Shown in pieces: positions 3,716 to 50,740 of a stretch of DNA of 64,000 nucleotides (within the stretch, counting starts at the first letter, position 1; every line of letters starts with the position of its first letter). The notes below the pieces were generated by a model. It was not told the DNA's origin and ran no database searches. It was given only the letters and a program-made list of their open reading frames with translations. Source of the stretch: an uncultured Methanosarcinaceae archaeon (GTDB lineage Archaea; Halobacteriota; Methanosarcinia; Methanosarcinales; Methanosarcinaceae); contig CAVTET010000012.1 in NCBI GenBank assembly GCA_963733675.1, positions 96,001 through 160,000 on the forward strand, in the 5' to 3' direction. Made by a program: the position numbers and the translations under genes.

Positions 3716-4569
3716 GGTTCCGTTGCAAAAAATCCTTTCTAATGATGCAATAGAATAAAACGAAAACCAAAGATAGTAATATGCTATCTAATTCCTTTAA
3801 ATGGAAGCCTTATGAAGGAGAAATTATCCTATTGAATGTAAGATGGTACTTAAAATACCCATTGAGCTATATAAATTTAAAGGAAATGATGATAGAAAGA
3901 GGAATTCAAGTTGATCACAGTACTATAATGAGATGGGTACATCAATATTCCCCTGAAATAGAAAAGAAAATAAGAAAATATTTAAGACCAACAAACGATT
4001 CGTAGAGAGTTGATGAAACCTATATCAAAATAAAAGGTAAATGGAAATATTTTTACCGAGCAGTTGACTCAAATGGAGATACAATTGATTTCATGTTAAG
4101 TTCAAAACGAGATAGAAAGGCAGCGAAGAGATTCCTTAAGAAAGCTTTGAGTTCTAATCATAATCAAATTCCAAGAGTAATAACAGTTGATAAGAATCAA
4201 GTTTATCCACCTGCTATAGATGAACTAAAAATTGATAAAATACTACCTAAAAACGTAGGCATTCGACAAATCAAGTGTTTGAATAACATTATAGAACAAG
4301 ATCATAGATCTATAAAGCGAATCGTTAATCCAATGTTAGGATTTCAGTTTTTTCGATCTGCTAATAAAACTTTAAAAAGAATTGAAGCTATGAATATGAT
4401 CAAAAAAGGACAAGTAATCGATTTAAATTACTCGATTCTTAATGAAGTCAAATACATTAATCAGTTGTTTGGTATTATTTTATAATGTTAGTACATTTTC
4501 CTTAAATATTTTGATTTTATTCATTACTTATAAATTTACATATTTTGTTGAAGTTTTTGCAACGGAACC
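3716..4569 (+). mobile_element. IS6-family element copy 1; transposase 3781-4485 interrupted by one in-frame TAG (4003-4005)
   Basis: TIRs GGTTCCGTTGCAAAAA at both ends; DDE motifs VDETY/TVDKN/IEQDHR; TAG where other copies have TGG. Confidence 0.95.
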
Positions 4570-5509: not shown

Positions 5510-6364
5510 GGTTCCGTTGCAAAAACTTCAACAAAATATGTAAATCTATAAGTGATTAATAAAAATCAAAACATTCAAGGAAAATGTACTAACATTATAA
5601 AACTATACCAAATAATTGATTAATGTATTTGACTTCATTAAGAACAGAGTAATTTAGATCGATTACTTGTCCTTTTTTGATCATATTTATAGCTTCAATT
5701 CCTTTTAAAGTCTTATTAGCAGATCGAAAAGACTGAAATCCTAACATTGGATTAACGATTCGCTTTATAGATCTGTGATCTTGTTCTATAATGTTATTCA
5801 AATACTTGATTTGTCGAATGCCTACGTTTTTAGGTAGTATTTTATCAATTTTTAGTTTATCTATAGCAGGTGGATAAGCTGGATTCTTATCAACGGTTAT
5901 TAATCTTGGAATTTGATTATGATTAGAACTTAAAGCTTTCTTAAGGAATCTCTTCGCTGCCTTTCTATCTCGTTTTGAACTTAACATGAAATCAATTGTA
6001 TCTCCATTTGAGTCAACTGCTCGGTAAAAATATTTCCATTTACCTTTTATTTTGATATAGGTTTCATCAACTCTCCACGAATAGTTTGTTAGTCTTAAAT
6101 GTCTTCTTATCTTCTTTTCTATTTCAGGGGAATATTGATGTACCCATCTCATGATTGTTGTATGGTCGACTTTTACTCCCCTTTCTGCCATCATTTCCTT
6201 TAAATTTCTATAACTTAATGCATATTTTAAGTACCATCTTACATTCAATAAGATAATTTCCCCTTCATAATGCTTCCATTTAAAGGAATTAGATAGCATG
6301 TTACTATCTTTGGTTTTCTTTTTATTCTATTGTATCATTAGAAAGGATTTTTTGCAACGGAACC
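5510..6364 (-). mobile_element. IS6-family element copy 2 with intact 234-aa transposase (5595-6299)
   Basis: Both TIRs present; uninterrupted DDE transposase ORF. Confidence 0.95.
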
Positions 6365-26118: not shown

Positions 26119-26973
26119 GGTTCCGTTGCAAAAAAAGATGAGACCGATACTATGAAATAAATAGGAATTTAAGAATATATAATATGCCAGTAAATGCCTT
26201 TAGATGGAAACACTTTGTAGGATAAATCATTCTGCAAACGGTAAGATGGTACTTAAAATATCCATTGAGCTATATAAATTTAAAGGAAATGATGATAGAA
26301 AGAAGAATTCAAGTTGATCACAGTACTATAATGAGATGGGTACATCAATATTCCCTTGAAATAGAAAAGAAGATAAGAAGACATTTAAGAACAACAAATG
26401 ATTCGTGGAGAGTTGATGAAACCTATATCAAAGTAAAAGGTAAATGGAAATTTTTTTACCGAGCAGGTGACTCAGATGGGGACATAATCGATTTCATGTT
26501 AAGTGCAAAACGAAATAGAAAAGCAGCGAAGAGATTCTTTAAGAAAGCTTCGAGTTCTAATCATAATCAAATTCCAAGAGTAATAACCGTTGATAAAAAT
26601 CCTGCTCATCCACCTGCTATAGGTAAACTGAAAAATGATAAAATACTACCTAAAAACGTAGGTATTCGACAAATCAAGTATTTGAATAACATTATAGAAC
26701 AAGATCATAGATCTATAAAGCGAATCGTTAATCCAATGTTAGGATTTCAGTCTTTTCGGTCTGCTAATAAGACTTTAAAAGGAATTGAAGCTATAAATAT
26801 GATCAAAAAAGGACAAGTAAATGATCTAAATTACTCTGTTCTTAATGAAGTCAAATACATTAATCAATTATTTGGTATAGTTTTATAATGTTAGTACATT
26901 TTCCTTGAATATTTTGATTTTTATTCATTACTTATAGATTTACATATTTTGTTGAATTTTTTGCAACGGAACC
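26119..26973 (+). mobile_element. IS6-family element copy 5, chimeric left end, early TAA
   Basis: Both TIRs; 5' part encodes MPVNAFRWKHFVG*IILQTVRW, unlike the other copies; the remainder matches them. Confidence 0.92.
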
Positions 26974-27393: not shown

Positions 27394-28278
27394 TTATTCT
27401 CCGTTATGGTCTTCAGTACCAACCTTTGATTTTTTCGAGTTAATTTCATTCGCTTTGTTTTGTGCATTTACTGCTTCATCATATCTCTTTAATTCATTTA
27501 GAGGATCTACTTTGTTGTTCCAAGCATCTGAATTCTGTGGGTTAATTTCAAGTGCTTTGTCATATGCTCTTAATGCTTCATCGTATTTATTTTGTTGAGA
27601 TAGAGCATCTCCTACATTGTTCCAAGCATTTTCATCTTTCGGGTTAATTTTAATTGCTTTATCATATGCTCTTAATGCTTCATCGAATTTATTTTGTTTA
27701 GATAGAGCATCTCCTTTATTATTCCAAGCATCCGAATTTTGAGGGTTAATTTCAGTTGCTTTGTCATAGGCTTTTATTGCTTCATCGTATCTATTTTGTT
27801 TAGCTAAAGCATCTCCTTTAATGTTCCAAGCATCTTCGTCTTGTGGGTCAATTTCAATTTCCGTGTCATTTGGCTTTAATGCTTCATTATTTTTATTTTG
27901 CTGAGATAGAGTATCTCCTCCATTGTTCCAAGCATTCTTGCTCTGCGAGTTAATTCCAATTACTTTGTCATATATTTCAATCGCTTTTTGATATGGTTTT
28001 AATGCTTTATCGTATTTATTTTGTTGTGAGAAAGCAGCTCCGTTAGTGTTCCAAATCATTGGATCCTGAGGGTTAATTGCAATTTCTGTTTCATATGGTT
28101 GAAATGCTTCATCGTATCTATTTTGTTGTGATAAAGCATCTCCGTTAGTGTTCCAAATCATTGGATCCTGCGCCGCGCCTGCGATTCTTACTAAAATCAA
28201 AAACACCAGCACAGCCATTCCTATAAATATTGTAAATGTGTGCTCTCTACTTGTTTCATGATATGTAGCTTTTCCCAT
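27394..28278 (-). CDS. TPR-repeat protein with N-terminal signal/TM segment
   Basis: About six 34-aa repeats (AWNNKGDAL..QNRYDEA..AYDKA.EINP), visible as 102-bp DNA repeats. Confidence 0.88.
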   Translation of the reverse strand: MGKATYHETSREHTFTIFIGMAVLVFLILVRIAGAAQDPMIWNTNGDALSQQNRYDEAFQPYETEIAINPQDPMIWNTNGAAFSQQNKYDKALKPYQKAIEIYDKVIGINSQSKNAWNNGGDTLSQQNKNNEALKPNDTEIEIDPQDEDAWNIKGDALAKQNRYDEAIKAYDKATEINPQNSDAWNNKGDALSKQNKFDEALRAYDKAIKINPKDENAWNNVGDALSQQNKYDEALRAYDKALEINPQNSDAWNNKVDPLNELKRYDEAVNAQNKANEINSKKSKVGTEDHNGE

Positions 28279-28343
28279 TTTTAGCCTCTAATGTTTGTTC
28301 AGATATTACAGCTGAAAAATAACTACAACTTGCTATATACTAT

Positions 28344-33100: not shown

Positions 33101-34366
33101 AGAATATTGAAGAGATCGGTATACATGAAGAATATTGAAGAGATAAATGGAAAATCACACGTGAAGAAGCAATAATTTTAACAGCTGCCGAGCTCAAATC
33201 CATCGTACGTGATGGTCAAACGATAACTGCTGACGATGTGGATGTGGTTACTACAGGAACATTTGGCGTGATGTCCGGTACGATGGCAGTAATGATGGTA
33301 CCTGTTGTGGAAAAATGTAGTTTTGAGAAAGCGGATTTCATTTGGCTAAATGGTGTCCCTGCTCAGCCTGGCCCCTGTCCAAACGAACGTTTTGGAGTTG
33401 TGGACCTTGTCATTCACGGAACATCACATGAAGATGACCGATATGGTGGGGGACATCTTTTCAGGGATCTTGTAAAAGGAAAAGAAATCGATATCCTTGT
33501 CGAAGCACATGGCAGAACTTATGAAAATAAAGTCACGCTTGAAGATATCGATTTTGCTAGAATAATTATCACAAGACTTGCATTTAAGAATTACCATGCG
33601 CCGGTAAACCCCACCGCAACTACAATTAGCACTATATTCTCTGTGACAGGTCTGACAGGTCCTTTCACAGAAACATCCGTATCAGGATGTGGCGAAATAA
33701 ACCCTTTACAGAATGATTCATCACATAGAATAATCGGCATAGGTACAAGAGTCCTCTTAAATGGAGCTACAGGATATATTATGGGAAAAGGGACCAGATC
33801 CAGCCCAGATAAACCGAATGCCTCGGCTTTTGCAGACATGAAGGCCATGGATCCTGACATGATGGGCGGAATGAAAACTTTCCATGGTCCTGAGTGCCTA
33901 ACTTCACTTGCAGTTGCAATACCTGTTTTAGATGAAGAGATCATGGTTGGGCTAAAAATTCTTGAGTGTGATATTCCATTTCCCGCTTAGGACATAAACA
34001 GGCGTATCGCTCATACAAAAATAAACTACGCGCATATCTGGGAGGGCACCGATAAAGTTATCTGGGTCGACAAGGACAGGTGTCTGAACCATCCCGATTG
34101 TCCTGCAATGCGCATGTGTCCTACAGAAGCAATTTCAGACCGTTTCGTCATCAACAGACATCTCTGTATCAACTGTGGCACCTGTTACCCTACAATGTTC
34201 TGGAGGGGTATTCTGTGCAAGACTGGGAGCCCTAGAATTGGCTGAAGGATCTGTTCCTATTTCGCTAAGACAATCGGACAGAGCCAGGGCAGAAAAGCTC
34301 TGTATGGTTCTTAAAAATCGTATTCAGCATAAATTCATACCAACGAAGATGATGGAACCGCTGTAA
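33097..34366 (+). pseudogene. Methanogenesis marker 16 metalloprotein (COG1900 family), disrupted
   Basis: VDVVTTGTFGVMSGT, GPCPNER, YGGGHLF, SGCGEINP, ferredoxin CINCGTC, LRQSDR. Duplicated start (33097-33116 = 33125-33144), two frameshifts, TAG at 33988. Confidence 0.85.
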
Positions 34367-36922: not shown

Positions 36923-37906
36923 TTATTTCATTAACGTATCGATCAAATCGTGGCCAAGGTCAGCAACGTGACCATCTAGATCTGTAAGGTTAGCAGCAGC
37001 ATACCACGAGGCATCTGCTTCTGGATGTGGTCCCGAAACGCCGATCTTTCCATTGCCGTAAGGCTGCACCATTGCGGCAACTTTACCATTCATATAAGTT
37101 GCAAGGATTGTTTGGCCTTCTATACAGCTCTTTGGTATGAAATATGGTCCATCCTGGAAATACATCCAGCGATTAGTTCCTCTCCACATAACTTGTACTA
37201 AAGTATCAGCTTTAGTTTTCACAGTAGCTCCTGGAGATTTAATATACTGATTCGTATTCAAACATAAGTTATATCCCGGATTATGATCAACCATATATCC
37301 TCCCATGCAAATGCCGAGATATCGTCCACCTTTCAAGACGAAATTTCGCACTGCAAGAGCATCTTTTTTTAATTTACTAAATGCCTGATTTACGCTTCCT
37401 TCCCCTCCGGGCTGCGCATACAGAACCACATTTGGAAGCCGTAGTCCAGCCTGAACAGACATGTTCTCATTGGGACCTACATATATTACACTGAAATTCC
37501 ATAGAGTATCACTTTTCAGCAATGCTGCAACTGCTTCAGAACATCCAGCACAACCTGCAGGTCCTCTGTACACTAATGCTATAGGGTTTGTTTCGGTTGG
37601 GTTGATCGCACTCTCTACTATTTTTTTGAAGCAGTCGGTTCTGTCAGATACTATCTCAAACTCTCTACATTTGGATTTGTCTGCAGGTACCGTGTGGCGT
37701 TTTATCAACGCTTCCTCAACATATTCATAGAAGTCGTCTCCAAGTTGTACTAAGCGATTAATGCTCAAGATATCGAAGCCTTTGCCATGTTCTAAGATGA
37801 TTGTATTGCCTCTAAATATTTCAAAAGAACCAAAAGCTACAGGGGTTAAAGCGATAATTAATGCGATTCCAAAAGCAAATAGGCGCATTACTCTCTTTAT
37901 TTTCAT
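36923..37906 (-). CDS. Exported BPL_N / class I glutamine amidotransferase-like protein
   Basis: Signal peptide; YAQPGG, GGRYLGICMGGY (Cys nucleophile elbow), SGPHPEA (His-x-Glu). Confidence 0.8.
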   Translation of the reverse strand: MKIKRVMRLFAFGIALIIALTPVAFGSFEIFRGNTIILEHGKGFDILSINRLVQLGDDFYEYVEEALIKRHTVPADKSKCREFEIVSDRTDCFKKIVESAINPTETNPIALVYRGPAGCAGCSEAVAALLKSDTLWNFSVIYVGPNENMSVQAGLRLPNVVLYAQPGGEGSVNQAFSKLKKDALAVRNFVLKGGRYLGICMGGYMVDHNPGYNLCLNTNQYIKSPGATVKTKADTLVQVMWRGTNRWMYFQDGPYFIPKSCIEGQTILATYMNGKVAAMVQPYGNGKIGVSGPHPEADASWYAAANLTDLDGHVADLGHDLIDTLMK

Positions 37907-39639: not shown

Positions 39640-39840
39640 ACATACATTTCCCATGTTTAAGTAAAGTATGGAGAAATGCTTAGGCTCGCTTTTTTCAATA
39701 ACCCAACTCAAAACTCTTTATCGGTAAAATTAAATAAGTACAGACTCTTTGAGCAGGTCCATCCATTTTAGAGACCTTTGTAAGCTTTTGTTTAGATTGA
39801 AATTTTTGTTCAGAAACATATTTATATAAATTTCATATAA

Positions 39841-39916
<76 letters not shown>

Positions 39917-40086
39917 TATTTCTGTATTAGGACTTCAAAAACATCATATTTCTTAATACGTTTATAAAGGATATCTAAATACTCTTTAAAATTAGAGGTT
40001 TGGATCCTCTCTACCTTCTAATATTATAAAAATATTTTAGATATTTAGATAAATATAAATATGTATATATCTTTATTACTGAATTA

Positions 40087-43000
40087 ATGTCACTAGAAAC
40101 AAAATTTTCTGACTTGGGGCTATTAGAAACTCAAGAAATTAAGGCTGAAATAGCTCGAGTTCCGAATATTGAACAAATTCTAGCGGCAGACGATTTCTCT
40201 AAAACAATTTCCATGTATTCTATTAACCATGGTCCAGTTGATTCGAGCCTTATCAGGGATGAATGCCTTTTTGAAATATTTGAAAGCACTTCTGATGCTT
40301 ACCCAGAAAGACCCGCTATCATTTTCCAAAATAAAGAATATAGCTACAAGGAAATTGATTTAAATGCAAATCGTCTTGCACGGTATCTCAGGGAAATGAG
40401 TATTCAAACCGGCGACAAAGTAGGTCTATTGCTAGAAAATTCAGTAGATATGTACGTCGCAATGCTTGGGATAATGAAGTCAGGAGCAGCCTATGTGCCT
40501 ATTGATATCGGGTATCCTGAAGATCGAGTAAAATATATTTTAGAAAATAGTGAGGTATCACTTACAGTTACGTGTTCATCAATTGCCGATTTTTTTGCTA
40601 TTAATGATAACATTCTTTTACTTGATCAAGAGAGTGACATAATTAATAGACATACATGTAGACGCCTTGAACGTGCTGAAACAGGCGTAACACCAAATGA
40701 CCTGAGCTACATAATCTATACTTCAGGTTCTACCGGACGTCCAAAGGGTGTTCAAATAGAACATAAAAGCGTCTGCAATCTCGTCAGAGCATCACAGAAA
40801 ATCTACCAAATCAAGCCTGAAGATAGAGTTTATCAAGGGTTTACAGTTGCTTTTGATGCTTCTATTGAGGAGATTTGGATGGCTTTTGGCCATGGAGCAG
40901 CACTAATTCCAAAGACCATGAAAATGCAAAAGGCGGGATTCGATTTTGGAAAACTGCTAATTGAGGCCAAAGTTACGATCTTGTCGTGTGTACCTACTTT
41001 TATGTCAATGATTACTGAGGATATCCCAAGTCTCAGACTGATTATTCTGGGAGGTGAAGCTTGCCCCCAGCATTTGGTAGACAAATTGAGTAAACCGACA
41101 CGTAGGCTTATCAATACCTATGGACCTACAGAAGCAACAGTAATTGCCACCTATTCAGAATTGGAGCCTAATAAAAAAGTTACCATAGGCCGACCTCTTT
41201 CTAACTACAGCGTTTATATTCTAAATGAAGACGGCTCTCTTGCACTCCACGGCGAGGCTGGTGAGCTTTTAATTGGAGGAATCGGTCTGGCCAGGGGATA
41301 TATTGGAAATTCAGACTTAAACCAGGATAAATTTATTGAAAATCCTGAGTTTAAAAGCTCCAAAGATCCTAAAAAATTCAATGAAATATACCCTCAAAGG
41401 CTCTATAGAACAGGAGACTTGGTAAGATTTGGTCAAGGTGGCGAAATTGAATTTCTTGGGAGAATAGACAGTCAAGTCAAAATAAGAGGATTCAGAGTTG
41501 AACTCTCTGAAATTGAATCTGTAATTAATTCTTCAAAAAGTGTCCTTACATCAGTTGTTTCAGTGCATGATTCGCCTGAAGGCATTCAGAAATTGGCGGC
41601 ATATATTGTACCTGAGGACAAAAAGGAATCCGTAGATTTGGCTAATATTTATACACTAATGAAAGAACGGCTGCCTAGTTATATGGTACCTCGATATATA
41701 GAATTCATTGATAAACTCCCAATGCTTCAAAGCGGCAAAATAGATCGCAAAAGCCTTCGATTACCCAACAAAATAATTATACCTCAAAAGTCAAAAAATG
41801 AAGTTAAGCCGCGAACAGAGTTGGAGGATAAAATAGCTGAAGTTTGGAAATCGGTTTTTAAAATGGAATCTATCTCGATTAAAGACCATTTTTTTAACGA
41901 CTTGGGTGGGCACTCACTTTTTGCAGCTTCGACAATTTCTGCGCTTAGAAAATACCCCGAAATGAGCTTTTTAAATTTTGCAGACATATATGAAAGTCCA
42001 ACAATTGAACTGCTTGCAGAAAAAATAAACTCATATAAATACACTCAACCAAATAATGTAGAAAAAATTAAGAAAAGTTTTTTGACCTCGTCTTCAATAT
42101 CGCATGCATTATGCGGAATTGGACAAGCCTTGTGTTTTTCTTTGAGTTCCCTTTTATTTTCGTTTTTACTTATGGGAGGTGTATATCTGTTGTTGTGGGC
42201 AGTGTTATCGGGAACCCCCAATGTTGGAAATATTGTGATTATTTCCGGTGTTTTGCTGCTTCTTGGAGTGGGATTATTTCCCTTCTTTATACTTCTGACC
42301 ATCGCCATAAAATGGATAGTTATAGGACGCTATAAACCTGGTAGGTATCCTTTGTGGGGAAGCTACTACTTACGCTGGTGGTTTGTAAGAGCATTTTCAC
42401 TTGCTCCAATCTCTTTATTTGAAGGGACTCCTCTGATGCCTTTATATCTAAGGCTAATGGGTTCGAAGGTTGGGAAGGATTGTTATATTAACACAAGCAC
42501 TATACAAACTTTTGACCTTATTAGTATTGGAGACAAAACAAGTATAGGATTTGATGCCCAGCTCTTGGGCTATACCGTAGAAGGCGGTTGTTTAGTCCTT
42601 GGTAAGGTAGATATTGGCAGCAAATGCTATGTAGGAACTCACTCAATTCTCTGTCCCGACACAAAAATGGAAAACGGATCAATGCTTTTAGATCAGTCCA
42701 CTATATCAGAAGGTATCACTATACCTTCAGGGGAAAGTTGGTCGGGCTCTCCAGCATCAATCTCAGAACCTGATGAAGATATTTTAGCCATAAAAACCTC
42801 ATCAATTGGATCATCATTAAAGAGAAAGGTTGCATTTGGAATAGCCCAGTTTACAGTAGCTAGTTACATTTTTGAGCTCATTACTCTGATAGCTTCTATA
42901 CCTGTACTAATCAACATGTATTTTTTGTATGTTAGCCAAAAAATATGGATATTGGCATTTTTACCCTTGGCAGCAACTATGTTCGTTCTCATTATGTGCA

Positions 43001-44208
43001 CCGAAATGGTATTTGTTAAGAAAATTATTTTGGGCAAAATTAATCCCGGCATATATGGAATCTATTCAAGTTTTTATTTTAGAAAATGGATGATTGATCG
43101 TTTAATGGCCATGTCTTTGTCAATTTTGCACACGCTTTATGCTACGCTCTACATAGTGCCTTTTTTAAGGGCTATGGGTGTAAAAATTGGGAAAAAAGCC
43201 GAAGTTTCTACAGTCATGCATATTTCTCCAGACCTTCTGTATATGGGAGATGAAACTTTTTTCGCAGATGCTGCGATGATTGGAACACAGAAAGTATATA
43301 TGAATCGAATGATGATCGCAGAGTCAAGGATAGGTAAGCGTTCCTTCATAGGAAATGGTTCTATGTTGCCAATAAACACGACGATTGGAGATAACTGCTT
43401 GATTGGAGTGTTATCTGTCCCACCGAAAGGAAGAATTACTCCCTCAGGTACTTCATGGCTTGGTATGCCAGCAATGTATTTACACAAAAGGGATATAAAC
43501 AACAGTTTCCCTGATACTGAAACTTATTCGCCAAATAAGCTGCTTTATGCAAAAAGGCTTACAATTGAGTTTTTTAAAGTGATTCTTCCTGTCGCTGTAG
43601 ATTGCTTAGCAGTTACGCTGATGCTTCCAATTTTGTATTATATGTATATAGACTTATATTTTTGGCAAAGTGTACTTTTATTTCCACTTGTTGTGATTGC
43701 ATTCTTAGCTGCATCCTTATTAATCGTGCTGCTTGCTAAGTATGTGCTAATAGGCACTTTTAAGCCACAGGACAAACCCCTTTGGAGTAAATTCGTTTGG
43801 ACAAACGAGCTTATAACAGGACTCTACGAAACAATGGTTGCCCCGTTCCTTTCTGTTTTGGTGGGAACTCCATTTATTGCTTGGTTCCTGAGACTTTTCG
43901 GATGCAAAATAGGTAAAAGAACTTTTATTGAAACAACATTTTTTACAGAATTCGACCTTGTAAAAATTGAGGATGAAGCTGCAATAAATCACAATGCTAC
44001 AATGCAAACTCACCTTTTTGAGGATAGAGTCATGAAAATGTCATATCTCAGAATCGGAAAGTGCTGTACAGTCGGAAGTGAAGCAATAGTTCTTTACGAC
44101 ACTGTCATGGAGGAAGGAGCAAAACTTGGAAGCCTGTCACTTCTAATGAAAGGTGAAACACTACCTTCGTGGACTTCCTGGGAAGGGAATCCAGCGAGAA
44201 CTAGATAA
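40087..44208 (+). CDS. Pls/PosA-type membrane-bound single-module NRPS (homopoly-amino acid synthetase-like)
   Basis: A-domain cores YTSGSTGRPKG, FDAS, NTYGPTE, LYRTGD, GRIDSQVKIRGFRVEL, SGKIDR; T domain DLGGHSL; three TM-separated hexapeptide repeats (LRLMGSKVG/LRAMGVKIG/LRLFGCKIG ... SW.G.PA); no C or TE domain. Confidence 0.92.
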   Translation: MSLETKFSDLGLLETQEIKAEIARVPNIEQILAADDFSKTISMYSINHGPVDSSLIRDECLFEIFESTSDAYPERPAIIFQNKEYSYKEIDLNANRLARYLREMSIQTGDKVGLLLENSVDMYVAMLGIMKSGAAYVPIDIGYPEDRVKYILENSEVSLTVTCSSIADFFAINDNILLLDQESDIINRHTCRRLERAETGVTPNDLSYIIYTSGSTGRPKGVQIEHKSVCNLVRASQKIYQIKPEDRVYQGFTVAFDASIEEIWMAFGHGAALIPKTMKMQKAGFDFGKLLIEAKVTILSCVPTFMSMITEDIPSLRLIILGGEACPQHLVDKLSKPTRRLINTYGPTEATVIATYSELEPNKKVTIGRPLSNYSVYILNEDGSLALHGEAGELLIGGIGLARGYIGNSDLNQDKFIENPEFKSSKDPKKFNEIYPQRLYRTGDLVRFGQGGEIEFLGRIDSQVKIRGFRVELSEIESVINSSKSVLTSVVSVHDSPEGIQKLAAYIVPEDKKESVDLANIYTLMKERLPSYMVPRYIEFIDKLPMLQSGKIDRKSLRLPNKIIIPQKSKNEVKPRTELEDKIAEVWKSVFKMESISIKDHFFNDLGGHSLFAASTISALRKYPEMSFLNFADIYESPTIELLAEKINSYKYTQPNNVEKIKKSFLTSSSISHALCGIGQALCFSLSSLLFSFLLMGGVYLLLWAVLSGTPNVGNIVIISGVLLLLGVGLFPFFILLTIAIKWIVIGRYKPGRYPLWGSYYLRWWFVRAFSLAPISLFEGTPLMPLYLRLMGSKVGKDCYINTSTIQTFDLISIGDKTSIGFDAQLLGYTVEGGCLVLGKVDIGSKCYVGTHSILCPDTKMENGSMLLDQSTISEGITIPSGESWSGSPASISEPDEDILAIKTSSIGSSLKRKVAFGIAQFTVASYIFELITLIASIPVLINMYFLYVSQKIWILAFLPLAATMFVLIMCTEMVFVKKIILGKINPGIYGIYSSFYFRKWMIDRLMAMSLSILHTLYATLYIVPFLRAMGVKIGKKAEVSTVMHISPDLLYMGDETFFADAAMIGTQKVYMNRMMIAESRIGKRSFIGNGSMLPINTTIGDNCLIGVLSVPPKGRITPSGTSWLGMPAMYLHKRDINNSFPDTETYSPNKLLYAKRLTIEFFKVILPVAVDCLAVTLMLPILYYMYIDLYFWQSVLLFPLVVIAFLAASLLIVLLAKYVLIGTFKPQDKPLWSKFVWTNELITGLYETMVAPFLSVLVGTPFIAWFLRLFGCKIGKRTFIETTFFTEFDLVKIEDEAAINHNATMQTHLFEDRVMKMSYLRIGKCCTVGSEAIVLYDTVMEEGAKLGSLSLLMKGETLPSWTSWEGNPARTR

Positions 44209-44433
44209 AGATCTCGTCTTGTCTTCCTTGGAGGCAAATCAACCTACACTACAACAATATTTTTTTCTGTGAATTATTTATTAAACCTTAAAACAGGACA
44301 TTTTTTCCTTATTTGAGAAAATGCAGATAGATCCTTTTGCTGATGATTTTTAGCAATTCAAGGTCCAATTGATCGCAATTAATCAAATATCCAGAAAATG
44401 ATACAAATTATCCTATTTTTAGATGGTTTTGAG

Positions 44434-45123
44434 ATGAAAATATTTGCCTTAAATGACCTAGAAACAATGGATGATTTAACATTTCTGAAGCTATTGACAA
44501 ATATACCTGACGAAAATCAGAAGAGGATTATAAAATTTACAAAACCTGATGATGCAAAACAAGTTTTGCTGGCGGACATTCTTGTAAGGTATGTCGTAGC
44601 GAGCGAGCTGAAAATTAGCAGTAAAACAATAGAATTTAATCATAATAGATACGGTAAGCCTTTTCTGAAGGGAAATTACAGACTTTATTTTAATGTCTCA
44701 CATTCTGGAAATTGGATTGTTTGTGCAATCGATGATGAACCCGTTGGTATCGACATCGAGAAGATAAGGTCAATAGAATTTGAAACACTTGAACAGTTTT
44801 TCTCAGACGAAGAGTACAAAATGTTTATGGCAAAAAATCCGAAAAATTGGCAGGTTTTTTTCTTTGACTTATGGACACTAAAGGAAAGTTATATAAAAGC
44901 AGTCGGGGAGGGGTTATCGATCCCTCTAAATTCATTTACAATTAGTTTTCTTAAAACAGGTGAGATAGCTGTTAAATTAGGCAATAAATTAACAAATTGG
45001 ACCCTAAAACAATATTTTATGGACCCGAAATATAAAATGTCAGTATGTGGTACACATAAGGCCTTTCCAGAGAATGTGATTATAAAAAAATTAAAATATA
45101 TTTGTTCGGAACATAGTATGTGA
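44434..45123 (+). CDS. Sfp-type 4'-phosphopantetheinyl transferase
   Basis: YGKP, FNVSHSG, VGIDIE, WTLKESYIKA motifs; start is either 44398 or 44434. Confidence 0.92.
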   Translation: MKIFALNDLETMDDLTFLKLLTNIPDENQKRIIKFTKPDDAKQVLLADILVRYVVASELKISSKTIEFNHNRYGKPFLKGNYRLYFNVSHSGNWIVCAIDDEPVGIDIEKIRSIEFETLEQFFSDEEYKMFMAKNPKNWQVFFFDLWTLKESYIKAVGEGLSIPLNSFTISFLKTGEIAVKLGNKLTNWTLKQYFMDPKYKMSVCGTHKAFPENVIIKKLKYICSEHSM

Positions 45124-46465
45124 TGTAAGCATTCAACTCATCAGAAAAATTAATTGATATCAATTTTAACATAATAGTTACGTTCGATTACTAACTGAAT
45201 AAAAAAGAAAAAACATAATCATAGCCAACAATTAAGAATATCAACTTCAGCTCACTGAAATTTGCCTATTGGATCTTAATGAAGATAGCTATGATGTTGT
45301 TTTACACTGGTTGAATAGAATCTCTGAATTGAATCGTTCGGGAATTCAGAGTGTTTTTTCGTAAGCTCCCAGCTATTATAGAGTAATGCAAGAGAATTTA
45401 GGGTCGCTGCAACATCTAGGTGTTACGGACCCCAGAACTTGTTCAAAATTTCACGAGCCCTTTGGTAAAGTAGGAGCTATTTTTTGTAATCTCCTATCTA
45501 AAAATAGAGATTGAAGATATATTTTAGTGTTGTTGCAATCAATATATATTTTTGCCAGAGTTCAGATTTAAGAATTTGTAACATCTCTTCAAATATTGGA
45601 GAATTTAACTACCAGTATGCAGCTGCATATTATCTACTTCACACCAACAAAAACCACAACAATGAAAGATTTTTTGTACATTTGGATGCAAGCCTGAAAT
45701 TCTTAACTGTGCATACCATATTCACAGAAGCACTGGAATTGTAAGAGCTGGAGAAAGATCAGATTCTACGAAATTTATAATAGAAATCGAAAAAGAAATA
45801 GTTCAAAATCTGAAAAGAAAATTATCTAATAAAAAAATATAGCCTATTTCAGAGAAGGGTTTTTGCTTTATTGGAAGAAAATTACTATCGAATCAATATT
45901 AACAGTCTTAACAAAATTTGATGCGAAATCCATGTTCATAAGCATATAAAATTAAAAACTAAAAAAGTGTGTTATGGGATGCTTGAGTTTAGCGGAATTA
46001 AATTTGAAGGAAATACTGTCGAATACTTTCCTTAACTCTATATTACAAATGTTCTTAAAATTGTCCCTTATGTGCCCTTTTTTCCAAATTAAGAAACAGA
46101 TATTTATACGAACATCAGAATTGCTATAATTATACCACAAATGTGACTATATATAATTCCTTATGTATACCAGAATAATATAAGAGGTAGGCATCCGGCA
46201 GCAACCCGAAATTAAGTGAGTTAGAGTCTGTGTCTGATTTAAAAAAACTGAAAAAGTAATGGGATAAAAGGATGTTGTAAATTATCAGCGTTCAGAAAGC
46301 GTTTGAAGCCCGATCCACCCTTGAATATATAAGTGATATTTCCAGAGGAACTTTACCCATGAATCTGAAGGATACTGAAAACATACCGTTCAATGCAGAA
46401 AATACACTTTCTGAGGTATGAAAATGGAAATTTCGGCCCACGTTTCATCATTTAAAAATTTATTT

Positions 46466-47928
46466 ATGGGAAACAAAAACCAAAATTCAGTGATAGTTCA
46501 TTCAATGAACCATAATATTCCTGGTATTTTAACCCTGGAGAGCAGAAAAAACTCTTTCCGCAGTCAAGATAGAATATGAGGTTGATGGAGAGATGAATGA
46601 TGGTAAGAGCAATGTAACCTGATCTGCCAACCTTAATAGGTGATGCCCATGCTGAAGGGTTTCATAGGGGAGATAAAAAGCCAGGCCTGTGAAACATTGT
46701 AATTGGCCCAAATAAAGCATTTGATACAGAAAAATACTGTGTCATTTGTTCAAACATACTGAGAGGTTTTAAGGGATCCACATGTCCCTTTTTCATAGAT
46801 CCTGAAACCGGAAAGCCCTATGCACCTCATTTTCTATAATTACTATCGCAGATGTTGTGAACCCCCAGAAAAAATTGATCCAATATCTAGTAATAAGACA
46901 ACTTTATGCAGTTGTAGGTGGCTCAATTGGTGGAATGCAAGTTCTTCAATGGACAATAAGCTATCCATATATGGTAAAAAAGGCTATCGCAATAGCTACA
47001 ACTGCATCTTCAACCCCGCAACAAATTGCATTTGGAGCATAGGTAGGAAAGCCATAACTTATGACCCTAAATGGGATGGAGGAAATTACTGTGGGAAAGA
47101 AATACCTGCACAAGGACTCGCACTTGCACGCATGGTAGGCCATATAACATACCTAAGTGATGCTTCGATGCAAAAGAAGTTTGGAAGAGTTCAGCAGGAT
47201 GAAGAAGGTATAGATCGCTCACCAAATTTTCAGATCGACAGCCACCTAAATCATCAGGAAGATACCTTTACAAAGCGTTTGACGCTAATTCATACTATAT
47301 GTTACAAAATACGTGGATTTCTTCGACCTTTCAAGGAATTGGCCCCTCATAGATGGCTTTGTTGGAGTTACAGCAAAATATCTCGTATTCTCCATAACTT
47401 TAGACTGGCTGTATCCTACGTATCAATCCCAAGAAATCGTATCTGCTCTTACAGCAAATGTAATTGATGTAAAATACGAAGAAATCAGGTCTCAATATGT
47501 ATATGATGCCTTTTTGCTTGAAGAAGGACAGATGAATTACCTAATAAGGGGTTTTCTATCCCAGATCCTTGTAAAGGACATTATAAATCAGAATTTTTAT
47601 TCAGTTTTCAGAGATGAAACAATAGAAAACGTATCAATACTCATGGTAAAAAGAAGGTTAAACATCTACTTTTCGTATCTGAAGGAAAGCTTGAAGGATT
47701 GTCACCTTCTGGGATATTACAAAAGCATTTGCCTGTAAAATAACTGAATTAAATGAGATAATTACACGTGATGTCTGGTATGATCATGGAGGCGATAAAG
47801 TTGAGATTGCATCGTCAAGAATGGAAAACTATTCAATTTTTGCACTTCCAGTCATCGACTTAAAAAACCACATAACAGGTATGGTTACAGGTGATAATAT
47901 AAGTGCTCTTATTGAAAAGTTCCATTAA
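46466..47928 (+). pseudogene. metX: Homoserine O-acetyltransferase with C-terminal CBS pair, multiply disrupted
   Basis: [56 protein letters not shown]-like LPVID; many frameshifts. Confidence 0.88.
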
Positions 47929-48573: not shown

Positions 48574-48901
48574 TCAAACCCTACAATCACATCCTTTTGC
48601 TTTCAGGATCTGTACCTGTTCCTCATAAGAATTCACAAATTTATCCTGAAAGGCTTTTCCTGTAGCTAGAAGGTTCTAGAAGAGTATGATGTTTATAACC
48701 ACGCTCCACCATCTCATGGGCAAGGGATTTATGCCGCATGTAAAGAGCCTTGAGCCTCCCTCTCCATCGCAATGTTTCTGGATGATGGGAATATGCCTTC
48801 TTTTTTTTAGTTATTATGGACCATATAGCATGCAACTCTCTATGTTTTCCCAGAAGGTGCTGCCTACATAGCTTCTCAGGTGGTATATCCCAAGTTCTCA
48901 T
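48574..48901 (-). pseudogene. Pyrimidine-dimer DNA glycosylase (T4 endonuclease V-like), frameshifted
   Basis: LCRQHLLGKHRELHAIW, HPETLRW; C-terminus ..QDKFVNSYEEQVQILKAKGCDCRV lies in another frame. Confidence 0.75.
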
Positions 48902-49886
48902 AGTACTAATCTAAATACATTTCAGAAAGATCTTTCGGAAAAAAGGTTTAATCATTTTCAAAACTTAGTTTAATATTTTGTATCTGATTCTTCATTCTGA
49001 CATTTGTTTATAGATTACCAGAAAAACTTTATCCATGCAAAAGTGGGTATTCCGATGCTTGCATTATCTTGATTTTACTAATTGCTACATTTACTTTCAA
49101 GAGATGAATACAAAAATGCCTTATTTTTTCAATATAACAATAGCTTCAAAGTTTATCTACTATTCAAAACCATAGATTTCGATTATAAAGACCAAAAAAT
49201 GCAGAGGAGATTATGTTAAAAATTTAGCAAAGCGATATCAAAAGATTTAGTTCCAAATGAGCAATATGTCTCAGGTTCCCGTGATGAAGCTTCAACACAA
49301 ATTAAAGTAGATATTCAAAGTTTATGAACATTATATAAATTTTTTATAGCTAAAAATACTGATTATACAGGCCAAATGCTTTTGTATTTACTCCATTAAT
49401 GGAATCAATGCATTGATTTTATGAAACATTCCAAATCAGAGATTGCATGTGAATTTTTGGAAAAAATAGTGGAAATGAATCATGGAAGAATAAATCTTGT
49501 TCTAATATATAGAGGTCGCAACATGCTGAAAGTTCCGCAAATTCTGACTGATTTCATACTTCTTTGTCTCCACCACAAAAAACAGAAAACTTTATTAGCA
49601 CAACCTTTGATTTCGTGCTCCGTTAATTATTGGCATAATATTACATTAAATTTCTTTTAATTGCTTTAAGAATTTTTTGCAAAATAAACTATATTATCAA
49701 ATATTATTGGAAAAAAAGAATTATGTGGGAAATGACAAGACATTAACTAATTTAATTATTTTATTCACTAGTACTCTAAACTCACAAATCTAAAAGTGTA
49801 GAAAGGCGCATATCTAAATTAGTTTAACCAAGCAAGTTTATTTCCAATCCAATTTGCTTGTATGTTTGTAGTCTAATACTAATTGT

Positions 49887-50740
49887 GGTTCCGTTGCAAA
49901 AAATCCTTTCTAATGATACAATAGAATAAAAAGAAAACCAAAGATAGTAACATGCTATCTAATTCCTTTAAATGGAAGCATTATGAAGGGGAAATTATCT
50001 TATTAAATGTAAGATGGTACTTAAAATATGCATTAAGTTATAGAAATTTAAAGGAAATGATGGCAGAAAGGGGAGTAAAAGTCGACCATACAACAATCAT
50101 GAGATGGGTGCATCAATATTCCCCTGAAATCGAAAAGAAGATAAGAAGACATTTAAGACCAACAAATGATTCGTGGAGAGTTGATGAAACCTATATCAAA
50201 GTAAAAGGTAAATGGAAATATTTTTACCGAGCAGTTGACTCAAATGGAGATACAATTGATTTCATGTTAAGTTCAAAACGAGATAGAAAAGCAGCGAATA
50301 GATTCTTTAAAAAGGCTTTAAGTTCTAATCATAATCAAATTCCAAGAGTAATAACAGTTGATAAAAATCCAGCTTATCCACCTGCTATAGATAAACTGAA
50401 AAATGAGAAGAACTTGTTTAAAAATGTTGAAATTAGACAAGTGAGGTATTTGAATAACATTATAGAACAAGATCATAGATCTATAAAGCGAATCGTTAAT
50501 CCAATGTTAGGATTTCAGTCTTTTCGATCTGCTAATGAGACTTTAAAAGGAATTGAAGCTATGAATATGATCAAAAAAAACAAGTCAATAATCTAAATTA
50601 CTCTGTTCTTGGTGAAGTCAAATACATTAATCAATTGTTTGGTATAGTTTTATAATGTTAGTACATTTTTCTTGGATATTTTGATTTTTATTAATCACTT
50701 ATAGATTTACATATTTTGTTGAATTTTTTGCAATGGAACC
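49887..50740 (+). mobile_element. IS6-family element copy 6; transposase with C-terminal frameshift
   Basis: Both TIRs; A-run at ~50573 shifts the last ~20 codons. Confidence 0.95.

What the first reader, a model, noticed from the sequence alone, without database searches (positions are those of the whole stretch)
40087..45123. Intact archaeal epsilon-poly-lysine-synthetase-like NRPS with its own PPTase
Seen: a 1373-aa protein with A domain, T domain and three TM-separated beta-helix repeats, lacking C and TE domains, followed ~200 bp later by an Sfp-type PPTase. Both are intact while most accessory genes nearby are broken. Manual alignment to GrsA gives the A-domain code D-A-E-S-I-G-T-V-I-K. 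Established: this architecture defines Streptomyces Pls, which polymerises diamino acids through isopeptide bonds at the membrane. From memory, lysine-activating domains have DAESIG-type codes. Inference: this methanogen may secrete a cationic polyamide (epsilon-poly-lysine, or poly-beta-lysine since Methanosarcina make beta-lysine) acting as an antimicrobial or aggregate/matrix polymer. I know of no characterised archaeal product of this class, though homologs may already be annotated.
Basis: partly seen in the sequence, partly recalled or inferred. Interest (0 to 1): 0.88.

Follow-up and report, generated by a model that had tools for sequence, protein, structure and literature searches.

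The report
Methanogen poly-lysine synthetase gene with PPTase
A methane-producing archaeon from soil and peat carries an intact, bacterial-type gene for the membrane enzyme that chains lysine into the antimicrobial polymer epsilon-poly-lysine, next to the helper enzyme that switches it on; the enzyme family is well known, but it has no characterised member in archaea.

Summary
Window 40087-44208(+) encodes a 1373-aa A-T-(6 TM/3 beta-helix) protein that scores 620.9 bits on TIGR02353 (Pls/PosA family, cut-off 423.1). It has no C or TE domain. An Sfp-type PPTase follows at 44398-45123. The specificity code DAESIGTVIK is confirmed and matches solved S. albulus Pls (7wew) at 9 of 9 pocket positions visible, differing only V/I at position 9. 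The host is a Methanosarcina-like methanogen.

The gene was found in 0 of 100 other genomes of the family and 0 of 400 of the phylum. Its clade nests among Clostridia and Bacillus sequences, so it was acquired horizontally. It lies in an IS-rich, decaying region and is the second-longest open frame of a gene-poor genome. RNA-library contigs from three studies cover both genes.

The best reading is a functional epsilon-poly-L-lysine-type synthetase. Poly-beta-lysine is disfavoured. Archaeal homologues are already mentioned in print, with a different code. This is a new member of a known kind, of moderate interest.

The parts
40087..44208 (+). pls-like gene: a 1373-aa single-module NRPS of the Pls/PosA family (A-T-polymerisation domain)
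   Evidence: ORF. TIGR02353 scores 620.9 bits against a cut-off of 423.1. It is the second-longest stop-to-stop frame of the genome.
40279..41739 (+). Adenylation domain (residues 65-551), with pocket code DAESIGTVIK at residues 257, 258, 261, 300, 320, 322, 344, 352, 353 and 551
   Evidence: Pfam AMP-binding and AMP-binding_C; TIGR01733 at 415 bits. Code. For the pocket region, the best PDB match is 7wew_A (epsilon-poly-L-lysine synthase) at 106 bits.
41827..42021 (+). Thiolation (carrier) domain, with the phosphopantetheine-attachment serine in GGHS (Ser610)
   Evidence: PF00550 at residues 581-645. GGHS at 607-610. The serine is invariant in the 11-sequence alignment A1.
42049..44205 (+). 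C-terminal membrane polymerisation domain: three repeats, each a TM helical hairpin followed by a left-handed beta-helix
   Evidence: TIGR02353 at residues 706-1370. Hydrophobic pairs. AF2 model with pLDDT 90.2 and pTM 0.90. Foldseek best matches are hexapeptide acetyltransferases, with TM-score (target) about 0.6 for one repeat. No solved relative covers the whole domain.
44398..45123 (+). Sfp-type 4'-phosphopantetheinyl transferase; the likely true start is 44434 (229 aa)
   Evidence: PF22624 plus PF01648. It is the only ACPS match above the cut-off in the genome. dN/dS is 0.165 against the 75%-identical copy in same-genus genome G063.
39840..40086 (+). Upstream region: an (AAAT)19 microsatellite at 39840-39916, followed by AT-rich DNA with TATA-like stretches. 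This is a putative promoter region and is an inference.
   Evidence: Sequence; TRF. No promoter tool for archaea was available.
26119..26973 (+). IS6/IS240-family insertion sequence copy on the left side of the genome-specific segment
   Evidence: Repeats. Terminal inverted repeats GGTTCCGTTGCAAAAAA. The DDE_Tnp_IS240 domain is seen in the sister copy.
49887..50740 (+). IS6/IS240-family insertion sequence copy on the right side, in the same orientation as the left copy
   Evidence: No matching 8-bp target duplication was found between the outer flanks of the two copies.
46406..47922 (+). Decayed pseudogene downstream of the PPTase
   Evidence: tblastn of a 512-aa ORF of G023 (L171 559-2094) matches here in pieces spread over at least 6 frame changes.

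Best explanation
This is a horizontally acquired and probably functional cationic homo-poly-amino-acid synthetase of the Pls/PosA family, sitting in a Methanosarcina-like methanogen.

Proposed mechanism, by homology to S. albulus Pls and A. baumannii PosA. None of these steps was assayed here.
1. The adjacent Sfp-type PPTase converts Ser610 of the carrier domain to its holo form.
2. The A domain activates L-lysine as the adenylate and loads it as a thioester.
3. The membrane-embedded C-terminal domain uses the side-chain amine of free lysine, or of the growing untethered chain, to attack the thioester. This domain has three beta-helix repeats packed like a trimeric hexapeptide acyltransferase.
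4. The result is an isopeptide-linked epsilon-poly-L-lysine-type polycation, released at or through the membrane.

Shown here: the architecture, family membership, a lysine-type pocket, intactness, foreign origin, and presence in RNA libraries. Inferred: the substrate, the polymer, its export and its ecological role.
For: Family and architecture: TIGR02353 scores 620.9 bits against 423.1. The order is A-T with no C or TE domain. There are three TM pairs, a confident three-repeat model and a beta-helix acyltransferase fold.

Substrate:
- The code DAESIGTVIK is shared by 99 of 121 aligned family members, query included.
- In the pocket region the best of all PDB chains is the Pls A domain 7wew_A (106 bits). 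Its aligned code is DAESIGTVV, against DMEHNGTVS for the PosA chains 8g95 and 8g97.
- Ala at position 2 is the lysine-length determinant proposed in PMC10522769 (passages).
- BacB-M1-Lys is DAESIGSV.

PPTase link:
- It is the only ACPS above the cut-off in the genome.
- A PPTase-like ORF lies beside the pls homologue in 32 of 160 fetched loci.
- Two database homologues carry PF01648 fused to the protein (P0046 and P0048).
- PPTase dN/dS is 0.165 against G063.

Constraint:
- It is the second-longest open frame in a genome with only about 56% of its DNA in frames of at least 100 aa, against 75-78% in two same-genus genomes.
- The neighbours are broken.
- The catalytic motifs are invariant across relatives of 55-96% identity.

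RNA libraries: contigs from three studies cover pls and the PPTase at about 93-98% identity. Examples are X15 record 10 (1338 nt, 40192-41529, 35 differences) and X18 record 22 (44542-44833).

Origin:
- 0 of 100 other family genomes and 0 of 400 other phylum genomes hold the domain.
- The clade nests among Clostridia and Bacillus rows.
- The best species-representative genome match is 51%, in an Oscillospiraceae MAG.
Against: - No biochemical data exist for this clade or for any enzyme I could identify with exactly the code DAESIGTVIK. Patel et al. stress that codes in this family are degenerate and that some homologues defy prediction.
- The protein is only about 37% identical to actinomycete homologues and sits in a different clade, so it is not an orthologue of the characterised Pls.
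- RNA-library contigs do not prove transcription, because DNA can be present in such libraries. They also differ from the window by 2-7%, so they come from relatives.
- The PPTase type also occurs, at 75% identity, in a same-genus genome (G063) that has neither pls nor any PP-binding match. It is therefore not strictly dedicated to pls and was not necessarily co-transferred with it.
- G000 also has a second PP-binding ORF elsewhere.
- No dN/dS could be computed for pls itself, because no DNA of close relatives was obtainable.
Confidence: 0.6

Rival explanations
1. The enzyme is functional but polymerises another diamino acid (L-ornithine, Dab, Dap, D-lysine or beta-lysine), or makes only short oligomers, so the product is not epsilon-poly-L-lysine.
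For: The family makes at least six different polymers and its codes are degenerate (PMC10522769 passages). The query is in a different clade from the characterised actinomycete Pls. Position 9 differs from Pls, Ile against Val.
Against: - Position 2 is Ala, as in the lysine enzymes. It is not Met (Orn), Phe (Dap/Dab) or Gly (beta-Lys).
- The code matches Pls at 9 of 10 positions, against 6 of 10 for the beta-lysine polymer synthetase code.
- AblA was not found in the genome (the genome is 92% complete).
Confidence: 0.17
2. The gene pair is a recent passenger on an IS-rich island. It is still intact only because too little time has passed, and it makes no product that matters to the host.
For: - It lies in a genome-specific segment between IS6-family copies. 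There are six copies or fragments in the window and 112 near-full copies in the genome.
- The surrounding genes are decaying.
- It was not found in the other genomes searched of the genus, family and phylum.
- G063 keeps a related PPTase without pls, which may be a relic of loss.
Against: - A 96%-identical copy sits on a contig of about 1.02 Mb in another assembly, and 65-72% relatives keep full length and all motifs.
- Codon-usage score and GC lie within the host range, at the 21st and 18th percentiles.
- RNA-library contigs from three studies cover it.
- The PPTase lineage is under purifying selection, with dN/dS 0.165.
Confidence: 0.15
3. This is an assembly or binning artefact: the pls-PPTase segment is bacterial DNA wrongly joined into an archaeal contig at repeated IS copies.
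For: - The genome is a metagenome-derived assembly of 15 contigs, 2.66% contamination, found in soil and peat runs.
- The segment is bounded by repeats.
- Its nearest named relatives are bacterial.
Against: - The flanking IS copies are only 85-90% alike, so they are poor substrates for misassembly.
- Sequences matching same-genus genomes lie on both sides and inside the segment.
- The PPTase is 75% identical (80.5% at DNA level) to one in a same-genus genome, and a 76% relative is labelled Methanosarcina sp..
- The 96% homologue lies on a contig of about 1.02 Mb.
- Eight DNA runs hold at least half of the sampled words.
Confidence: 0.04

Closest known systems
Epsilon-poly-L-lysine synthetase Pls of Streptomyces albulus (A-domain structure PDB 7wew)
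   Same: - The same A-T-(6 TM/3 tandem domain) architecture with no C or TE domain.
- It passes the same family model, TIGR02353.
- The pocket code is identical at 9 of 10 positions (DAESIGTVIK against DAESIGTVVK).
- 7wew is the best PDB match for the pocket region.
   Different: - Only about 37% identity to Streptomyces homologues (L041 and L043), and a separate clade in the tree.
- The host is an anaerobic archaeon.
- A PPTase is encoded directly downstream.
- Product and chain length are unknown.
Delta-poly-L-ornithine synthetase PosA of Acinetobacter baumannii (PDB 8g95-8g98; PMC10522769)
   Same: The same family and the same predicted pseudo-threefold beta-helix polymerisation domain. The model described in the passages matches ours. 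Asp and Glu at code positions 1 and 3 are conserved.
   Different: The PosA code is DMEHNGTVSK, with Met at position 2 restricting chain length; ours has Ala. About 35% identity to A. baumannii copies.
Uncharacterised Pls/PosA-family proteins of Clostridia and Bacillus (for example the Oscillospiraceae MAG L010, the Acetivibrio MAG L011, Aneurinibacillus soli P0019 and Bacillus spp. P0032-P0034)
   Same: These are the nearest named relatives, at 48-51% identity. They have the same code, DAESIGTVIK, and form the surrounding clade in the tree.
   Different: They are bacterial hosts. L010 and L011 are not among the 32 of 160 fetched loci where a PPTase-like ORF was detected. None is known to me as characterised.
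Archaeal CHPA-synthetase homologues mentioned by Patel et al. 2023
   Same: They are archaeal members of the same family, noted in print and without a known product.
   Different: Their reported code is DLEDIGTV(T/V/I)K, placed in 'group 4' with unknown substrate. Ours is the lysine-type DAESIGTVIK. Their identities are in Supplementary Table 2, which I could not open.

Membership tests
Pls/PosA family (cationic homo-poly-amino-acid synthetases, TIGR02353) | The C-terminal domain of about 700 aa scores above the curated model cut-off | tested here: met
   620.9 bits against 423.1, residues 706-1370; 623.4 bits in the genome search.
Pls/PosA family (cationic homo-poly-amino-acid synthetases, TIGR02353) | A single N-terminal A-T module with no condensation or thioesterase domain | tested here: met
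   Pfam lists only AMP-binding, AMP-binding_C, PP-binding, Hexapep and LbH_EIF2B at E<=0.01. TIGR01733 scores 415 bits.
Pls/PosA family (cationic homo-poly-amino-acid synthetases, TIGR02353) | Six TM helices in three pairs, separating three homologous soluble domains that form left-handed beta-helices | tested here: met
   Hydropathy pairs. AF2 model with pLDDT 90.2 and three repeats. Fold matches to hexapeptide acetyltransferases. Sequence matches to LbH and gamma-CA chains.
Pls/PosA family (cationic homo-poly-amino-acid synthetases, TIGR02353) | An A-domain pocket with Asp at position 1 and Glu at position 3, for an alpha-amino and a side-chain amino group | tested here: met
   D257 and E261. 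The role of these positions comes from PMC10522769 passages.
Pls/PosA family (cationic homo-poly-amino-acid synthetases, TIGR02353) | Makes an isopeptide-linked homopolymer | not testable with these tools
   Needs enzyme assays and mass spectrometry.
Epsilon-poly-L-lysine synthetase in the strict sense (orthologue of S. albulus Pls) | A lysine-type specificity code | tested here: met
   9 of 10 positions identical to the code read from 7wew_A. Ala at position 2.
Epsilon-poly-L-lysine synthetase in the strict sense (orthologue of S. albulus Pls) | Falls in the actinomycete Pls clade | tested here: not met
   In the FastTree of 117 rows, the query clade sits with Clostridia and Bacillus rows, and the actinomycete rows form another clade. 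Identity to Streptomyces loci is 37%.
Epsilon-poly-beta-lysine synthetase | Code DGESISVVNK and a supply of beta-lysine | tested here: not met
   6 of 10 code positions match. TIGR03820 AblA was not found in G000, which is 92% complete.
Sfp-type (group II) 4'-phosphopantetheinyl transferase | A two-lobed protein of about 230 aa with AASDHPPT_N and ACPS domains | tested here: met
   PF22624 at 62.7 bits and PF01648 at 68 bits. The nearest NCBIfam models are AusB and HetI, both below their equivalog cut-offs.
Sfp-type (group II) 4'-phosphopantetheinyl transferase | Modifies the carrier domain of the neighbouring synthetase | not testable with these tools
   The only support is adjacency here and in 32 of 160 homologous loci, plus fused forms.

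The most novel reading that the evidence does not exclude
A methanogenic archaeon living in peat and wet soil makes and releases epsilon-poly-L-lysine. This would be the first NRPS-derived polymer, and the first polycationic antimicrobial or adhesive, shown for any archaeon. The enzyme came from anaerobic Bacillota and is kept intact and expressed while much of the rest of the genome decays. That suggests it is important for how this methanogen competes with, or sticks to, its bacterial partners.
Probability: 0.4. Interest if true: 0.7.

Novelty: new member of a known kind. Interest (0 to 1): 0.52.

Why it matters
No archaeal non-ribosomal peptide product has been characterised as far as my four searches show. 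Epsilon-poly-lysine is a broad-spectrum, industrially used antimicrobial.

A methanogen that produces it would add a chemical-warfare or aggregation tool to the ecology of methane-producing consortia in peat. It would also give a clean example of a bacterial secondary-metabolite enzyme, together with its activating PPTase, working in an archaeal membrane of ether lipids.

The locus is directly testable: two genes, a predicted substrate, and a simple mass ladder as read-out.

The setting is also of interest: an IS-swamped, gene-poor genome within an otherwise ordinary genus.

Tried and rejected
- **Poly-beta-lysine idea.** Rejected as the less likely reading (code mismatch; AblA not found).
- **Composite transposon.** The two direct IS copies at 26119-26973 and 49887-50740 have no matching 8-bp flanks and are only about 87% alike. 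The idea is not supported, and how the segment moved remains unknown.
- **Functional partners among the neighbours.** I scanned an ABC ATPase, a CobW/HypB-like GTPase, an Fe-S protein, HcyBio, a BPL_N-like ORF at 36923-37906 and small ORFs. Nothing pointed to a polymer-degrading enzyme, exporter or regulator.
- **DNA of the close relatives (P0003-P0009) for context and dN/dS.** So the taxonomy of the 65-72% clade is unverified; one member is labelled 'Euryarchaeota archaeon' on a 4.8-kb contig.
- **Depth pattern in RNA libraries.** The bin upstream of pls (39681-40140) and the pseudogene bins (45661-47040) have little or no cover in the four RNA runs, while the pls bins do. The tool warns that contig depth and uncovered parts are no evidence, so I do not use this as proof of transcription.
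- **Listed differences in the RNA contigs.** The eight shown inside pls (40157-40329) lie in the poorly conserved N-terminal extension and are too few for a selection estimate.
- **Literature.** No paper with the exact codes DAESIGTV, DAESIGTVIK or DAESIGTVVK was found. Supplementary Table 2 of PMC10522769, which lists codes and archaeal accessions, could not be read because supplements are closed.
- **Not used.** Complex prediction (carrier domain with PPTase), the protein-atlas search and the search of protein representatives, because the families are clear.
Full report
**1. What is there**

The two ORFs are exactly as reported. Window 40087-44208(+) encodes 1373 aa (P0001), and 44398-45123(+) encodes 241 aa (P0002).

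P0001 has AMP-binding (65-405), AMP-binding_C (475-551), PP-binding (581-645) and hexapeptide matches. It has no Condensation or Thioesterase match at E<=0.01. It scores 620.9 bits on NCBIfam TIGR02353, 'Pls/PosA family non-ribosomal peptide synthetase' (cut-off 423.1), over residues 706-1370. It scores 415 bits on the amino-acid adenylation model TIGR01733.

Hydropathy gives three pairs of membrane helices, at about 675-745, 917-985 and 1158-1226.

An AlphaFold2 model of residues 655-1373, built on 48 aligned sequences, is confident (pLDDT 90.2, pTM 0.90). It shows three repeats of a helical hairpin, short helices and beta-helix strands. Its best fold matches in the PDB are hexapeptide-repeat acetyltransferases, with a TM-score of about 0.6 on the target for one repeat. 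By sequence, the only solved relatives of this part are beta-helix or gamma-carbonic-anhydrase-like chains. This is the pseudo-threefold model that Patel et al. 2023 describe for PosA (PMC10522769, passages).

P0002 has the two lobes of an Sfp-type PPTase: AASDHPPT_N and ACPS. Most relatives are 229 aa and align from residue 12-13, so the true start is probably Met13 at 44434.

**2. Substrate code**

I mapped the ten Stachelhaus positions to P0001 residues 257, 258, 261, 300, 320, 322, 344, 352, 353 and 551, which gives DAESIGTVIK. Of 121 aligned sequences (the query plus its 120 best database hits), 99 share this code. Variants with Phe at position 2 also occur.

A PDB search with the pocket region alone (residues 240-360) ranks the epsilon-poly-L-lysine synthase A domain 7wew_A first (106 bits). 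Next come the chains 8g95 and 8g97, whose aligned residues spell the published PosA code. The printed alignments give DAESIGTVV for Pls and DMEHNGTVS for PosA. They also confirm the register against TycA.

BacB-M1-Lys is DAESIGSV (Table 2 passage of PMC3207962). Patel et al. show experimentally that position 2 sets chain length: Phe for Dap/Dab, Met for Orn and Ala for Lys. They give DGESISVVNK for the epsilon-poly-beta-lysine enzyme.

The beta-lysine alternative fits poorly, at 6 of 10 positions. In addition, no AblA (TIGR03820) was found in this 92%-complete genome, although the M. acetivorans control rings.

**3. Host and origin**

The window is C12:96001-160000 of a 3.92-Mb, 15-contig assembly (92% complete, 2.7% contamination). 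The genome has mcrA. Its best solved relatives are chains 1e6y_A (1206 bits) and 8gf5_A, which I recall as the M. barkeri and M. acetivorans enzymes. The host is therefore a Methanosarcina-like methanogen.

TIGR02353 was found in none of the other genomes searched:
- 0 of 100 other genomes of the same family, including 11 of the same genus.
- 0 of 400 other genomes of the same phylum, covering 36 families.

These are samples, so the gene was 'not found in those searched'.

In the protein database the nearest relatives are as follows:

| Relative | Identity to P0001 | Note |
|---|---|---|
| P0003 | 96% | on a contig of about 1.02 Mb |
| P0004-P0009 | 65-72% | one labelled 'Euryarchaeota archaeon', on a 4.8-kb contig |
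| P0010-P0012 | 55-57% | one labelled Sericytochromatia |
| Clostridia and Bacillus proteins | 48-51% | nearest named bacterial group |

Among species-representative genomes the best match outside the window's own genome is 51% (an Oscillospiraceae MAG).

I built a FastTree of 117 rows: the query, the P0003-P0045 proteins longer than 1200 aa, and L010-L089 ORFs longer than 1150 aa. I left out P0046-P0122 and L091-L170. In this tree:
- The query and P0003 fall in a 9-row clade (support 100).
- That clade sits inside a 29-row clade with the Clostridia rows (100).
- Both sit inside a 42-row clade with the Bacillus and Aneurinibacillus rows (100).
- The actinomycete rows form a separate clade.

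The tree is unrooted, FastTree joins long branches readily, and many rows deviate in composition. Even so, the nesting together with the rarity in archaea points to transfer from bacteria, most likely anaerobic Bacillota.

Family members also sit on 41 plasmid records at 80% coverage or more.

GC (38.0%) and the codon-usage score (21st percentile) of pls lie within the range of the host's own long ORFs. This is compatible with either amelioration or a low-GC donor.

**4. Setting**

The window holds six copies or fragments of one 855-bp IS6/IS240-type element, with terminal repeats GGTTCCGTTGCAAAAAA. The genome holds 112 near-full copies.

pls and the PPTase lie between two direct copies, at 26119-26973 and 49887-50740. 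I found no matching target duplications. The stretch from about 27 to 46 kb has almost no DNA match in five same-genus genomes. Genes further out do match, at 72-83%, but at scattered places in those genomes.

Two neighbours are verifiably broken.

The decay is genome-wide:

| Measure | This genome (G000) | 200-kb samples of two same-genus genomes |
|---|---|---|
| DNA in stop-to-stop frames of at least 100 aa | about 56% | 75-78% |
| Frames of at least 300 aa per 200 kb | 42 | 71-76 |
| GC | 35.8% | 41-42% |

Against this background, the pls frame is the second-longest in the genome.

**5. The PPTase**

It is the only ACPS match above the cut-off in the genome; a second match, at 24 bits, lies just below it. 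The genome has one other PP-binding ORF, on contig C3.

PPTase-like ORFs lie beside the pls homologue in 32 of 160 fetched loci, and two homologues are fused to one. The pairing is therefore a recurrent solution.

The PPTase has a wider distribution than pls, however. About 40 database proteins are 61-90% identical, one of them labelled Methanosarcina sp.. The same-genus genome G063 has a 75%-identical copy in an unrelated context, beside an ABC-2 transporter and a LysE-type translocator. G063 has no pls remnant in 20 kb and no PP-binding match in the genome. dN/dS between the two PPTase copies is 0.165.

Another same-genus genome, G037, has a 3008-aa multimodular NRPS frame about 3 kb from its own, more distant PPTase. 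NRPS-plus-PPTase acquisitions therefore recur in this genus.

**6. Expression**

The stretch is held by 20 listed runs from 11 studies of soil, peat and wetland samples; five are RNA libraries. Contigs of four RNA libraries from three studies lie on pls and the PPTase at about 93-98% identity. Examples:
- X15: 1338 nt at 40192-41529 with 35 differences.
- X15: 1075 nt at 42330-43403 with 20 differences.
- X13: 420 nt at 45041-45460.
- X18: 292 nt at 44542-44833.

These contigs come from close relatives, not necessarily this genome. An RNA library can also carry DNA. The result is compatible with expression in situ but does not prove it.

**7. Verdict**

The thing is a genuine member of the Pls/PosA family with a lysine-type pocket. 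It was acquired by a methanogen from bacteria, it is intact in a decaying genome, and a PPTase sits next to it.

The most likely function is synthesis of an epsilon-poly-L-lysine-type polycation by the mechanism established for Pls and PosA (confidence about 0.6). The role of that polymer is open.

It is not an orthologue of the characterised actinomycete enzyme. Archaeal homologues of the family, with another code, have already been mentioned in print. I therefore rate it a new member of a known kind, of moderate interest, with a cheap and decisive experimental test.

Noticed in passing
whole genome G000; window 1-64000: The genome looks as if it is in large-scale decay. About 56% of the DNA lies in frames of at least 100 aa, against 75-78% in two same-genus genomes. 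It has roughly half as many frames of at least 300 aa, and GC is 35.8% against 41-42%. It carries 112 near-full copies of one 855-bp IS6/IS240-type element. IS expansion with pseudogenisation in a free-living-type methanogen genus deserves its own look; assembly quality should be checked first.
   Followed up: partly
window 3716-4569(+) and 5510-6364(-): Two inverted IS copies about 0.9 kb apart share the same 8-bp flank, GTATTTGT: the right flank of the first and the left flank of the second, in IS orientation. This pattern is expected from intramolecular replicative transposition of IS6-type elements.
   Followed up: no
window 33139-34366(+): A methanogen-type homocysteine-biosynthesis gene (HcyBio, PF01837) is interrupted by an in-frame TAG at 33988-33990. 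A Fer4 piece follows, and the HcyBio C-terminal end lies in another frame. It is probably a pseudogene. Read-through of TAG was not examined.
   Followed up: partly
window 39840-39916: A perfect (AAAT)19 microsatellite lies 170 bp upstream of the pls start codon. RNA and DNA contigs appear to be cut there. It could vary in length between strains and affect the promoter region.
   Followed up: no
window 27394-28287(-): A TPR-repeat protein is built from 102-nt tandem DNA repeats, with five copies at 63-78% identity to the reference copy. TPR ORFs also lie near the PPTase of G063.
   Followed up: no
G063:C3:27001-47000 (L200): A same-genus genome has a 75%-identical PPTase with no pls and no PP-binding match anywhere in the genome. 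It lies beside an ABC-2 exporter pair, a LysE-type translocator, an M48 peptidase and PspAB. This may be a relic of a lost pls locus, or a PPTase with another client.
   Followed up: partly
G037:C89:30052-39878: Another same-genus genome carries an open frame of 3008 aa with three PP-binding domains, which is a multimodular NRPS. It lies about 3 kb from a PPTase that is 32% identical to P0002.
   Followed up: no
G000:C3:141840-147547 and G000:C6:35795-35974: Elsewhere in the genome there is a stand-alone PP-binding ORF (108-aa frame) about 5 kb from a hexapeptide-repeat match. There is also a weak ACPS-like match (24 bits, just below the cut-off) in a 237-aa frame. This may be a second carrier-protein system.
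   Followed up: no
database proteins P0046 and P0048 (1745-1759 aa); P0054 and P0147: Two Pls-family proteins carry a fused PPTase domain (PF01648). A 49%-identical Pls homologue (P0054) and a 65%-identical PPTase (P0147) both have a longest contig of 149,675 bp, so they probably sit on the same contig.
   Followed up: no
window 48641-48910(-): A short ORF matches pyrimidine-dimer DNA glycosylase (PF03013, 96 bits) within the decayed stretch between the PPTase and the IS copy.
   Followed up: no
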